A stretch of 64,000 nt of DNA from Escherichia coli. Lineage in GTDB: Bacteria > Pseudomonadota > Gammaproteobacteria > Enterobacterales > Enterobacteriaceae. The position numbers are program-made. Positions 28,001 through 31,000 of the stretch are shown here, in pieces; the stretch's first letter is position 1, and the number at the start of each line of letters is the position of its first letter. The stretch is from assembly GCF_001677475.2 (NCBI RefSeq), contig NZ_CP015229.1, one strand, 5' to 3'.

Positions 28001-31000
28001 GGTTGGCAAGGGTGGGGCAATGCAAAACCTGGGTCAGGACGCCGCCACAAAGGTTAACTCTGGCGGGCAATATACCCTTGGGCGGTCAAAAGATGAGTTT
28101 CAGGCTCTGGCCCGGGCAGAAGATCTCCAGGTCACTGACGGGACGGCAATCGTCTACGCAGGTACGCTGGCGGATGCATCGGTCAGTGGCGCGACAGGAA
28201 GCCTGTCGTTAATGACGCCACGGGATAATGTTACGCCAGTTAAACTCGAAGGGGCGATCCGGATTACCGATAGCGCGACATTAACTATCGGAAATGGCGT
28301 CGATACGACGCTTGCCGATCTGACGGCTGTCAGCCGGGGCAGTGTCTGGCTTAACAGCAATAATTCCTGTGCAGGTACCAGCAACTGCGAATATAGAGTA
28401 AACAGTTTGCTACTCAACGACGGTGATGTTTATTTATCAGCGCCTGCCACAACTAACGGTATCTACAATACGTTGACCACCAATGAACTTTCCGGCAGCG
28501 GTAACTTCTACCTGCATACCAACGTTGCAGGCTCCCGGGGCGATCAACTGGTCGTCAGCAACAACGCCACTGGTAATTTTAAAATCTTTGTTCAGGATAC
28601 CGGCGTCAGCCCTCAGTCTGACGACGCGATGACGCTGGTGAAAACAGGGGGAGGGGATGCTTCGTTTACGCTGGGCAATACCGGCGGTTTCGTTGATCTT
28701 GGGACCTATGAGTATGTCCTGAAAAGCGACGGCAACAGCAACTGGAACCTGACCAATAATGTCAACCCAAACCCAAACCCAAACCCAAATCCGAACCCGA
28801 ACCCAAATCCGAACCCAAACCCGAACCCAAACCCAAACCCGAACCCGAACCCAAACCCGAACCCAAATCCAAACCCAAACCCAAACCCGAACCCAAATCC
28901 AGACCCGACTCCCGATCCAACGCCGACCCCCGTTCCGGAGAAACGCATCACGCCTTCTACGGCAGCTGTACTCAATATGGCAGCAACATTACCGTTGGTA
29001 TTTGATGCTGAGCTAAACAGTATTCGCGAGCGGTTGAACATAATGAAAGCGAGTCCACACAACAATAATATCTGGGGGTCGACGTATAACACCCGTAATA
29101 ATGTCACCACCGATGCGGGTGCCGGGTTTGAGCAGACGCTGACCGGAATGACAGTGGGGATCGACAGCCGTAATGATATTCCAGAAGGAATTGCCATGCT
29201 GGGCGCTTTTATGGGTTATTCCCATTCACATATCGGTTTTGATCGCGGAGGTCATGGCAGTGTGGGCAGTTATTCTCTGGGGGGCTATGCCAGTTGGGAG
29301 CATGAAAGTGGTTTCTATCTGGACGGTATCGTGAAGCTGAACCGTTTTGAAAGTAACGTAGCCGGTAAAATGAGCAGCGGTGGAGCCGCCAACGGCAGTT
29401 ATCACAGCAACGGGCTGGGCGGTCACATTGAAACCGGGATGCGATTTACCGATGGTAACTGGAACCTGACGCCGTATGCATCGTTAACGGGGTTCACCGC
29501 TGATAACCCCGAATATCATTTATCCAATGGTATGGAATCGAAATCAGTCGATACCCGCAGTATATATCGTGAACTGGGCGCAACGCTGAGTTACAACATG
29601 CGTCTGGGGAACGGTATGGAAGTTGAGCCGTGGCTGAAGGCGGCTGTGCGCAAAGAATTTGTCGATGATAACCGGGTGAAAGTGAATAATGACGGTAATT
29701 TCGTCAATGATTTGTCGGGCAGACGTGGAATATACCAGGCAGGTATTAAAGCCTCATTCAGCAGTACGTTAAGTGGGCATCTCGGGGTGGGGTATAGCCA
29801 TGGTGCCGGTGTGGAATCCCCGTGGAACGCGGTAGCTGGTGTGAACTGGTCGTTCTGACCATCAACGATTAAACTGCGCTTCGGCGCAGTTTTCGTTTAC
29901 AGGATGTTAAAAGGGAAAATTCTGGGGCAAAAAAAGCCCGCCAGTTACGGCGGGAAACCTCATCCTATGGGAGAACAATGAATAATGAAATTGCGGGGTT
30001 ATCATCTCCCAGTATATACACACTAACAATAAGGTTATTTACTCAACCAGGCATAAACATTTTGTTTTGTGCGTGGGAACAGCCTTAAGGTGTAAAGGGG
30101 GAGGTGGAAATAGCAATGAGGAGTATCAGCAAGAATACTCGCCGCTTTACCACAACGTGGATGAGAGGGATGAAAAACTCAAGGCAGAGATAACTCTGCC
30201 TTGAAGATAAATGCGCTTTAACAGCAGGCTTATTTCAGCTCTTCTGCTTCCGGTAAGGTCACGTTCAGCTCAAGAATAGAAATATCGCCATCTTTTTGCT
30301 CAAGCTGTACGGTTACCATCTCAGGATCAATTTGTACGTATTTACAAATGACCTCAAGAATATCTTTACGCAACTGCGGCAGATAATGCGGTTCTGCATC
30401 GCTGCGACGGCGTTCAGCAACAATAATCTGTAGCCGTTCTTTTGCAATGTTGGCTGTGTTTTTCTTCCGCGAGAGAAAGAAATCGAGTAATGCCATAACT
30501 TATCCTCCGAACAAGCGTTTGAGGAAGCCTTTCTTCTCTTCTTCAATGAAGCGGAAAGGACGTTCTTCTCCCAACAGACGTTCTACGGTATCTGCGTAGG
30601 CTTTACCCGCATCGGCGTTAATGTCGAGAATGACCGGTTCACCCTGGTTAGAGGCGCGCAAAACTGATTGATCCTCTGGGATCACGCCGACGAGTTTGAT
30701 GCGCAGGATCTCCAGCACATCTTCCATGCTCAGCATGTCACCTCTGCTTACGCGGCCTGGGTTATAGCGGGTTAACAGCAGGTGCTCTTTAATAGGCTCT
30801 TCGCCATTTTCTGCGCGGCGTGATTTCGACGCCAGAATGCCTAAAATACGGTCAGAGTCGCGTACTGAGGAGACTTCCGGGTTGGTGGTAATAATGGCTT
30901 CGTCTGCAAAATAGAGTGCCATTAACGCACCGGTTTCAATCCCTGCCGGGGAGTCACAAACGATAAATTCAAAATCCATCGCTTTCAGATCATCAAGAAC

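What the first reader, a model, noticed from the sequence alone, without database searches (positions are those of the whole stretch)
28764..28901. Twenty-three-unit hexanucleotide repeat encoding (Asn-Pro)23 inside the autotransporter
A perfect 6-bp periodicity lets slipped-strand gain or loss keep the reading frame, so the linker between passenger and translocator domains is likely length-variable between isolates. The reverse strand of the same tract produces a spurious GFGFGF ORF.
Basis: seen in the sequence. Interest (0 to 1): 0.4.

Follow-up and report, generated by a model that had tools for sequence, protein, structure and literature searches.

The report
Length-variable Asn-Pro stalk in autotransporter
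A run of 23 Asn-Pro pairs forms a flexible stalk between the surface-exposed part and the membrane anchor of an E. coli adhesin-type protein; its length differs from strain to strain (11 to 37 pairs), which is an ordinary kind of repeat variation in bacterial surface proteins.

Summary
Window 28764-28901 is exactly 23 in-frame hexamers encoding (NP)23 inside an intact AIDA/pertactin-type autotransporter gene (26478-29858, +) next to minE.

One correction applies. The repeat is perfect only in the protein. The DNA uses four synonymous unit types, and its longest perfect period-6 run is 26 bp.

The tract lies between the pertactin-type autochaperone domain and the alpha-helix that plugs the 12-strand barrel. 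AlphaFold2 gives it no secondary structure.

In 17 orthologous minE-adjacent alleles from complete E. coli genomes the NP count runs from 11 to 37. All are in frame except one, probably a sequencing error. Strains with zero differences in about 2 kb of flank still differ in the tract (15/13/11, 29/31/37 and 23/22/24). These changes are gains or losses within homogeneous sub-runs, which is the signature of slippage. At least 39 genomes share one identical allele, so the tract is not hypermutable.

The paralog YpjA/EhaD has a mixed K/D/N-Pro linker at the same position, and TibA has a proline-rich domain there. This is a new member of a known kind, an in-frame coding repeat in a proline-rich stalk. 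Interest is low to moderate.

The parts
26478..29858 (+). Intact AIDA/pertactin-type (type Va) autotransporter gene, 1126 aa from ATG 26478. The open frame extends upstream to GTG 26349. It is the intact version of the K-12 ycgI pseudogene locus and a paralog of ypjA/ehaD.
   Evidence: ORF. Pfam finds AIDA x6, Pertactin and Autotransporter. NCBIfam TIGR01414 and TIGR04415 pass their cut-offs. The synteny ymgJ - gene - minE matches PE164 and K-12. CDS length minus tract is 3237 nt, as in 12 of 14 annotated orthologs. The C-terminal ~830 aa are about 95% identical to K-12 YpjA by my reading of the alignment; BLASTP gives 80% over 1023 aligned positions.
28398..28754 (+). Pertactin-type autochaperone (junction) domain, the last beta-helix rungs of the passenger.
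   Evidence: Pfam PF03212 at aa 684-802, E = 4.9e-47. The AF2 model shows beta strands at residues 1-122 with high pLDDT. By sequence it matches pertactin 1dab.
28764..28901 (+). (NP)23 tract: 23 in-frame hexamers of four synonymous types. This is the length-variable part of the stalk.
   Evidence: Copy number is 11-37 in orthologs. AF2 gives pLDDT <50 and no secondary structure.
28902..28937 (+). Non-repetitive X-Pro tail of the linker, DPTPDPTPTPVP. It is shared with the YpjA paralog and is probably the ancestral part of the linker.
   Evidence: The segment TPDPTPTPVPEKR is conserved in K-12 YpjA.
28953..29045 (+). Alpha-helical linker (ITPSTAAVLNMAATLPLVFDAELNSIRERLN...) that sits inside the barrel.
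   Evidence: AF2 helix at residues 186-216 of the C-terminal piece. The motif is conserved in all homologs.
29067..29852 (+). 12-strand outer-membrane beta-barrel (translocator).
   Evidence: Pfam PF03797 at aa 908-1147. AF2 places strands at residues 224-485. By sequence it matches the BrkA barrel 3qq2 and Vag8 7akv.
28706..29197 (-). Spurious antisense ORF (163 aa) whose (GF)n run is the reverse-complement reading of the tract. It is not a gene.
   Evidence: It is fully overlapped by a Pfam-supported gene. No such CDS appears in the 17 RefSeq annotations of orthologs.

Best explanation
The tract is an in-frame coding tandem repeat (VNTR). It forms most of a proline-rich X-Pro stalk in a surface autotransporter.

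DNA level: short homogeneous runs of identical 6-bp units, and 12-bp 'AATCCG-AACCCA' dimers, misalign during replication. Whole units are gained or lost. Because the unit is two codons, the frame and the downstream helix and barrel are always preserved. The result is length variation, not on/off switching.

Protein level: alternating X-Pro sequence cannot form alpha or beta structure and is expected to adopt an extended polyproline-II-like conformation. The stalk emerges from the extracellular mouth of the barrel and holds the beta-helical passenger away from the outer membrane. At 0.31 nm per residue, 11-37 NP units plus the fixed DPTPDPTPTPVP tail would span about 10-27 nm (18 nm in the window).

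What is shown: the location, the frame preservation, the copy-number polymorphism between strains, and the indel pattern. What is inferred: the extended conformation and the spacer role. Whether length differences matter, for example for reach beyond O-antigen or capsule, or for antigenicity, is speculation.
For: - Exact in-frame repeat, far above chance.
- Position between the autochaperone domain and the helix and barrel.
- In 17 orthologous minE-adjacent alleles NP counts range from 11 to 37, and 16 of 17 are multiples of 6.
- CDS length minus tract is a constant 3237 nt in 12 of 14 annotated orthologs and in the window, so nearly all gene-length variation comes from the tract.
- Alleles with 0 differences in ~2.05 kb of flanks differ in the tract: 15/13/11, 29/31/37 and 23/22/24.
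- Unit-string alignments place these differences as indels inside homogeneous sub-runs (a-, g- and u-runs, and the 'ta' dimer).
- All four common unit types are synonymous. Apart from the fixed terminal GACCCG (DP) unit, the only non-NP units in the in-frame alleles are two singletons, AACCTA (NL) and AAACCA (KP). This suggests selection to keep NP.
- An X-Pro linker at the same place is ancestral. K-12, O157 and ST648 YpjA have KPNPDP...KPDP (18-20 X-Pro units), E. albertii homologs have 11-17 units, and Citrobacter, Salmonella, Klebsiella and Erwinia homologs have other Pro-rich linkers.
- TibA has a described proline-rich domain between its junction region and membrane domain (PMC3835316).
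- Pertactin has proline-rich repeat regions R1 and R2 whose copy number differs between alleles. [quoted passage not shown]
Against: - The window's own allele is scrambled (longest pure run 4 units, 26 bp), so its slippage rate may be low.
- At least 39 complete genomes from different countries and hosts show the same span and bit score, i.e. apparently one identical allele. That allele contains a 9-unit pure run, so the tract is not hypermutable on epidemiological timescales.
- I chose loci with different spans for fetching, which exaggerates diversity among the fetched set. The unselected top 21 rows still show ~17 different spans.
- No data here bear on heterogeneity within a culture, on expression of the gene, or on the conformation of (NP)n.
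- The related autotransporter YejO has no linker at all, so a stalk is not needed for secretion and its length may be unconstrained.
Confidence: 0.8

Rival explanations
1. Neutral junk repeat. The linker tolerates any length, and the variation is mutational noise without consequence for the protein.
For: The range is wide (11-37) with no obvious preferred length. The related YejO has no linker, and other homologs have linkers from ~10 to ~100 aa. Pertactin R1/R2 variation likewise has no proven functional effect.
Against: The dipeptide identity is kept strictly. All common unit variants are synonymous, and the only two non-NP units are singletons. No ortholog has fewer than 11 NP units, i.e. 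16 X-Pro units in all. An X-Pro linker is retained in both paralogs and in E. albertii.
Confidence: 0.35
2. Antigenic variation. The exposed repeat is an immunodominant epitope, and length or sequence change is selected by host antibody, as proposed for the pertactin repeat regions.
For: The tract is surface-exposed, repetitive and polymorphic between strains. The pertactin R1/R2 regions offer an analogy.
Against: The amino-acid sequence of the epitope does not change. Only its length does, which gives little escape from anti-(NP)n antibody. No immunological data exist. One allele is shared unchanged by at least 39 genomes.
Confidence: 0.1
3. Phase-variation switch. Repeat slippage turns the adhesin on and off.
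For: Tandem repeats in surface-protein genes are the classical contingency-locus design. One ortholog (LHM10-1, L011) is frameshifted inside the tract.
Against: The unit is 6 bp, so slippage of whole units cannot change the frame. 16 of 17 alleles are in frame. The L011 frameshift consists of extra A's in A-runs, which is typical of a sequencing error.
Confidence: 0.02
4. The variation comes from gene conversion or unequal recombination with the ypjA paralog, not from local slippage.
For: The two paralogs share ~93% nucleotide identity over the flanking 1.1 kb and ~95% protein identity over ~830 aa, which is enough for recombination.
Against: The YpjA linker has a different composition (K/D/N-Pro, 18-20 units) and is not found in any minE-adjacent allele. 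Differences between alleles with identical flanks are small indels within pure sub-runs.
Confidence: 0.05

Closest known systems
YpjA / EhaD of E. coli (K-12 b2647; EHEC EhaD), an AIDA-type biofilm-associated autotransporter
   Same: RefSeq gives the orthologs of this gene the same product name. The C-terminal ~830 aa, comprising the passenger end, autochaperone, helix and barrel, are ~95% identical by my reading of the alignment. An X-Pro linker ending in TPDPTPTPVPEKR lies at the same position.
   Different: The chromosomal locus differs: it lies between ymgJ and minE, the K-12 ycgI pseudogene site, not at 2.78 Mb. It is shorter (1126 vs 1525 aa). The YpjA linker is a mixed, charged KPNPDPIPNPKPDPKPDP... 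of 18-20 units with little length variation, not a homogenised (NP)n array.
Proline-rich domain of TibA (ETEC self-associating autotransporter)
   Same: It is a ~50-residue proline-rich segment placed between the junction (autochaperone) region and the membrane-embedded domain (PMC3835316). The architecture and approximate size match.
   Different: The TibA domain is not described there as a pure dipeptide repeat or as copy-number variable. Sequence similarity was not tested here.
Pertactin repeat regions R1 and R2 (Bordetella)
   Same: These are proline-rich repeats in an autotransporter passenger whose copy number differs between alleles and species. R2 is disordered in the crystal structure, and a stalk role has been suggested for it. 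The variation is slow, not occurring within a single infection (PMC8931430). The adjacent domain here matches Pfam Pertactin and PDB 1dab.
   Different: Pertactin has different repeat units (5- and 3-residue motifs, from my own knowledge) and far fewer copies. Here there is a dipeptide repeat of up to 37 copies.
Coding VNTR loci used for E. coli MLVA typing (CVN014, CVN015, CVN016, CVN017; 6-bp units)
   Same: These are 6-bp tandem repeats with strain-to-strain copy-number differences, some of them absent from many strains.
   Different: None of the 20 published primers matches sequence flanking this tract with up to 4 mismatches. It is not one of those typing loci.
X-Pro rod of TonB ((EP)n(KP)n) and trypanosome procyclin (EP)n
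   Same: These are alternating X-Pro dipeptide repeats thought to form extended spacers (my own knowledge). Pfam Trypan_PARP gives a sub-threshold compositional match to aa 802-863 (35.6 bits against a cut-off of 100).
   Different: There is no homology. This stalk is uncharged (Asn) and sits outside the cell, not in the periplasm.

Membership tests
Type Va (classical monomeric) autotransporter, AIDA/pertactin type | C-terminal 12-strand beta-barrel preceded by an alpha-helical linker | tested here: met
   Pfam PF03797 at 908-1147, E = 1.6e-46. TIGR01414 scores 317.7 bits against a cut-off of 16. The AF2 model has a helix at 186-216 and a 12-strand barrel, pTM 0.74.
Type Va (classical monomeric) autotransporter, AIDA/pertactin type | Beta-helical passenger with AIDA-type repeats and a C-terminal autochaperone (pertactin-like) domain | tested here: met
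   PF16168 AIDA in 6 stretches, E = 1.8e-87. PF03212 Pertactin at 684-802. TIGR04415 repeat scores 133 bits against a cut-off of 30.
Type Va (classical monomeric) autotransporter, AIDA/pertactin type | N-terminal Sec signal peptide | not tested
   MNRISRYYFHRSVLSLLISTMIYAPPGMTA looks like a signal peptide by eye. No predictor was run.
YpjA/EhaD orthologous group | Same chromosomal locus as, and full-length similarity to, K-12 ypjA (b2647) | tested here: not met
   The gene lies at the ycgI site next to minE, not at the ypjA site. It is 1126 aa against 1525 aa, with a rearranged N-terminal passenger. No NCBIfam equivalog model passes its cut-off. It is a paralog that shares the product name.
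Variable-number tandem repeat (coding VNTR) | Head-to-tail repeat whose copy number differs between otherwise near-identical strains | tested here: met
   11-37 units in 17 orthologs. Three groups with 0 flank differences in ~2.05 kb have different counts.
Phase-variable contingency locus | Repeat slippage shifts the reading frame or the promoter spacing, giving on/off switching | tested here: not met
   The unit is 6 bp and lies within the coding region. 16 of 17 alleles are in frame.
Phase-variable contingency locus | High-frequency length heterogeneity within a single culture | not testable with these tools
   This needs read-level data or PCR fragment analysis.
Proline-rich stalk or linker of autotransporters (TibA-like) | Pro-rich segment between the junction/autochaperone region and the membrane-embedded domain, without regular secondary structure | tested here: met
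   aa 806-863 is 50% Pro. It lies between Pertactin (ends 802) and the helix (from ~869). AF2 gives no secondary structure and pLDDT <50. The TibA description is in PMC3835316.
Proline-rich stalk or linker of autotransporters (TibA-like) | Extended (polyproline-II) conformation and a functional contribution to reach or adhesion | not testable with these tools
   This needs biophysics and isogenic length variants.

The most novel reading that the evidence does not exclude
Tract length acts as an adjustable 'ruler'. Selection matches the reach of the stalk (~10-27 nm for 11-37 units) to the thickness of each strain's O-antigen or capsule layer, so that the adhesin passenger is either exposed or hidden. 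Slippage provides the heritable variation for this tuning.
Probability: 0.1. Interest if true: 0.5.

Novelty: new member of a known kind. Interest (0 to 1): 0.25.

Why it matters
The practical value is modest.

- The tract is a discriminating in-frame VNTR, with 11-37 copies and differences even between alleles with identical flanks. It is not part of the published generic E. coli MLVA scheme and could add typing resolution in the ~8% of strains that carry the gene.
- It is an annotation hazard. It creates spurious antisense and out-of-frame ORFs, attracts compositional hits such as circumsporozoite protein and procyclin, and invites assembly or homopolymer errors that make the gene look frameshifted.
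- The paired paralogs, a homogenised uncharged (NP)n against a mixed charged K/D/N-Pro linker in otherwise ~95% identical C-terminal regions, offer a natural system to ask whether stalk length and chemistry matter for display of short adhesins beneath LPS and capsule.

None of this would surprise a specialist.

Tried and rejected
- Generic E. coli MLVA loci: I took the 20 primer sequences from PMC8143711 and scanned the window with up to 4 mismatches. None flanks the tract, so it is not CVN014, CVN015, CVN016 or CVN017.
- Literature searches for ycgI/UpaI/UpaJ and for 'NPNPNPNP' or 'Asn-Pro repeat' returned only noise. One paper mentions a ycgI-homolog pseudogene in UTI89 (PMC6206680). I found no published description of this tract.
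- The search for homologous proteins with the C-terminal 486 aa was swamped by repeat words: only 8000 candidates were scored and there were few full-length orthologs. It served only for cross-species linker comparison, not for allele statistics.
- I could not obtain tract lengths for all 423 genomes carrying the locus, because the search tool lists at most 60 rows. The paralog ypjA and the universal minE flank prevent a query that returns only orthologs. Population statistics therefore rest on 17 fetched alleles plus spans read.
- Phase variation was rejected because of the 6-bp unit.
- A real antisense (GF)n gene was rejected.
- PDB hits to P. falciparum circumsporozoite protein and the Pfam Trypan_PARP hit are compositional matches to the tract. 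They are not homology.
- No NCBIfam equivalog passes its cut-off.
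Full report
**Observation.** Window 28764-28901 is 138 nt, exactly 23 hexamers. 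It lies in frame with the long ORF 26349-29858 (+) and encodes (NP)23 at aa 806-851 of that ORF, followed by DPTPDPTPTPVPEKR. Tandem Repeats Finder reports it as 28764-28906, period 6, 23.8 copies, score 195. It is by far the strongest repeat in the window, and 30 dinucleotide-preserving shuffles of the window never exceeded a score of 63. The DNA is a mixture of four synonymous units: AACCCA x13, AACCCG x6, AATCCG x2 and AATCCA x2. TRF gives 84% matches, and the longest perfect period-6 run is 26 bp. The repeat is perfect only as protein.

**The gene.** The ORF is a classical AIDA/pertactin-type autotransporter. Pfam finds six AIDA repeat stretches, a Pertactin domain at aa 684-802 and the Autotransporter beta-domain at 908-1147. 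NCBIfam TIGR01414 (barrel) and TIGR04415 (strand-loop-strand repeat) pass their cut-offs, and no equivalog model does. The likely start is ATG 26478, which gives 1126 aa. With that start the CDS length minus the tract is 3237 nt, the same as in 12 of 14 annotated orthologs.

The gene lies directly upstream of minE-minD-minC on the opposite strand. In E. coli PE164 the same arrangement is annotated: ycgH(pseudo)-ymgD-ymgG-ymgI-ymgJ-[autotransporter]-minE-minD-minC. In K-12 this position holds only the 344-bp pseudogene remnant ycgI. RefSeq names the intact gene 'adhesin-like autotransporter YpjA/EhaD', but it is a paralog of the true ypjA at 2.78 Mb. The C-terminal ~830 aa are about 95% identical to K-12 YpjA, while the N-terminal passenger is shorter and rearranged (1126 vs 1525 aa). 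The minCD flank is 99.7% identical to E. coli genomes. No complete genome in the collection has this autotransporter allele above ~98% identity.

**Position of the tract in the protein.** An AlphaFold2 model of the C-terminal 486 aa was built with a 15-sequence alignment (mean pLDDT 81, pTM 0.74). It shows:
- beta-helix rungs at residues 1-122;
- a stretch without secondary structure and with pLDDT <50 at 125-180, which is the NP tract plus the DPTPDPTPTPVP tail;
- a long helix at 186-216;
- a 12-strand barrel at 224-485.

By sequence, the flanking parts match pertactin (1dab), the BrkA barrel (3qq2) and Vag8 (7akv). The tract itself attracts only compositional hits to P. falciparum circumsporozoite protein. 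From the established topology of type Va autotransporters, the residues just N-terminal of the plug helix emerge on the extracellular side. The tract is therefore a stalk between the barrel mouth and the passenger.

**Copy number across strains.** A 2.2-kb query spanning the tract, the gene end, the intergenic region and minE is covered by at least 80% in 423 of 5,426 complete E. coli genomes. I fetched 16 such loci plus one more ortholog and extracted the segment between the conserved anchors.

- NP counts are 11, 13, 15, 22, 22, 23, 23, 24, 25, 27, 28, 29, 31, 32, 33 and 37, against 23 in the window.
- One further allele (LHM10-1) is 209 nt long. It carries extra A's in A-runs and is flagged as frameshifted, so it is most likely a sequencing error.
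- Every other allele is a multiple of 6.
- I selected loci for fetching because their spans differed. Even so, the unselected top 21 rows already show about 17 different spans.
- Spans within the coding-only query imply further alleles of 17, 22, 23, 24, 25 and 28 units.

The most informative result comes from alleles with identical flanks. PE164, F2_81 and E105 have 0 differences in ~2.05 kb of aligned flank but carry 15, 13 and 11 units. UTME-7, CP52E and VE-T9 have 0 differences and carry 29, 31 and 37. LSC52, 2021CK-01784 and AF40 have 0 differences and carry 23, 22 and 24. The tract therefore changes faster than 2 kb of flanking sequence accumulates a single substitution.

I coded each unit type as a letter and aligned the resulting strings. 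The differences are gains or losses inside homogeneous sub-runs (runs of AACCCA, of AACCCG, of AATCCA) or of an AATCCG-AACCCA dimer. This is the footprint expected from replication slippage in short pure arrays.

Set against this, at least 39 genomes from several continents and hosts show the same span and the same bit score, i.e. apparently one identical allele, although that allele contains a 9-unit pure run. The tract is thus a VNTR-type locus and not a rapidly switching one. The window's own allele is unusually scrambled (longest pure run four units) and should be among the more stable ones.

**Constraint on the sequence.** All four common unit types encode Asn-Pro. Apart from the fixed terminal GACCCG (DP) unit, the in-frame alleles contain only two non-NP units, AACCTA (Asn-Leu) and AAACCA (Lys-Pro), each in one strain. 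Only 4 of 18 possible single-base changes per unit are synonymous, so this points to selection for the dipeptide. The number of independent events is small, however.

**Origin and relatives of the linker.** True YpjA from K-12, O157:H7 and ST648 has, at exactly this position, a mixed charged X-Pro linker of 18-20 units (KPNPDPIPNPKPDPKPDPKPDPNPKPDP followed by TPDPTPTPVP) with little length variation. More distant homologs differ as follows:
- E. albertii homologs have NPDPKPDPDPKP... of 11-17 units.
- Citrobacter, Salmonella, Klebsiella and [Enterobacter] lignolyticus homologs have other Pro-rich linkers of ~25-60 aa.
- An Erwinia homolog has ~100 acidic Pro-rich residues.
- YejO has none.

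A Pro-rich stalk is therefore a common but dispensable feature of this clade. The (NP)n array is a homogenised expansion specific to the minE-adjacent E. coli paralog.

The literature describes the same architecture in TibA, with a 'proline-rich domain', residues 627-677, between the junction region and the membrane-embedded domain (PMC3835316). It also describes proline-rich repeat regions R1 and R2 in pertactin. [quoted passage not shown]

**Mechanism.** Shown here: an in-frame 6-bp coding repeat, located in the stalk, polymorphic between near-identical strains, with indels in pure sub-runs. Inferred from established knowledge of X-Pro sequences (TonB, procyclins, polyproline II at about 0.31 nm per residue; my own knowledge): the stalk is extended and would span about 10, 18 and 27 nm for 11, 23 and 37 units plus the fixed tail. 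Speculative: that this length matters, for example for projecting a short adhesin beyond O-antigen or capsule, or for antigenicity.

**Rivals.** Neutral length drift cannot be excluded and is the main alternative for the functional part. Antigenic variation is weak because the epitope sequence does not change. On/off phase variation is excluded by the unit length. Conversion from ypjA is not supported, because the YpjA linker composition never appears at this locus.

**Antisense ORF.** The 163-aa ORF at 28706-29197 (-) with its (GF)n run, the (GL/GS)n ORF at 28762-28920 (-) and the (TQ)n ORF at 28759-29016 (+) are alternative-frame readings of the tract. None is annotated in any of the 17 RefSeq records inspected.

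**Known or new.** I found no paper describing this tract. It is not one of the published generic E. coli MLVA loci, since none of their 20 primers matches near it. The phenomenon itself, an in-frame VNTR in a proline-rich stalk of a surface autotransporter, is well known. I file it as a new member of a known kind.

Noticed in passing
window 47071-47226 (ORF 46085-47551, minus strand): This is a second in-frame coding tandem repeat, period 12 (CTGCAAGAAAAC = LQEN x3-4, then degenerate; TRF 13 copies at 70%). It lies in a 488-aa accessory protein with a weak leucine-rich-repeat match (LRR_4, 26.7 bits, just under the cut-off). The gene is full-length in only 811 of 5426 complete E. coli genomes. 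Record spans of 1437 and 1443 against 1467 suggest length variation here too. The MLVA primer CVN014-F matches 47277-47300 only with 4 mismatches and the reverse primer is absent, so identity with CVN014 is not established.
   Followed up: partly
window 22485-25132 (+): The upstream autotransporter ycgH is split into two overlapping ORFs, 22485-23120 and 23102-25132. The second carries AC_1, Pertactin and the Autotransporter barrel. It looks like a frameshifted pseudogene, as annotated in K-12 and PE164, so the window holds one decayed and one intact autotransporter side by side.
   Followed up: partly
L011 (NZ_CP037903.1, strain LHM10-1), tract at locus 465-673: This is the only out-of-frame allele (209 nt). 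It has extra A's in AAACCC contexts (AAACCGAAAAACCCG, CCAAAAACCCAA), and RefSeq calls the gene frameshifted. It is probably a homopolymer sequencing error and not a real pseudogene. The tract is a trap for long-read assemblies.
   Followed up: no
H77 (NZ_AP018488.1, O157:H7 PV15-279) and H59 (NZ_CP038416.1, O157:H7 3-5-1): In O157:H7 PV15-279 the minE-adjacent copy carries an IS1203-family insertion (span 3546 against 2221). In O157:H7 3-5-1 the best listed match ends at query position 532, inside the tract, though its locus was not checked. The O157:H7 strain LSU61 has an intact gene with 22 NP + KP + DP.
   Followed up: no
window 26478-29858 compared with the E. coli genome collection: The core flank (minD-minC-ycgJ) is 99.7% identical to many E. 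coli genomes. In contrast, the best matches to the 3' part of the autotransporter and to the LRR gene among 5426 complete genomes are only ~98% and 94.3%. The window comes from an E. coli or Shigella lineage whose accessory alleles are poorly represented among complete genomes.
   Followed up: partly
window 28764-28901, protein database hits: The NP tract draws significant-looking but purely compositional hits to Plasmodium falciparum circumsporozoite protein structures (E ~1e-8) and to Pfam Trypan_PARP (35.6 bits, cut-off 100). It also saturated the word index of the large protein search.
   Followed up: yes
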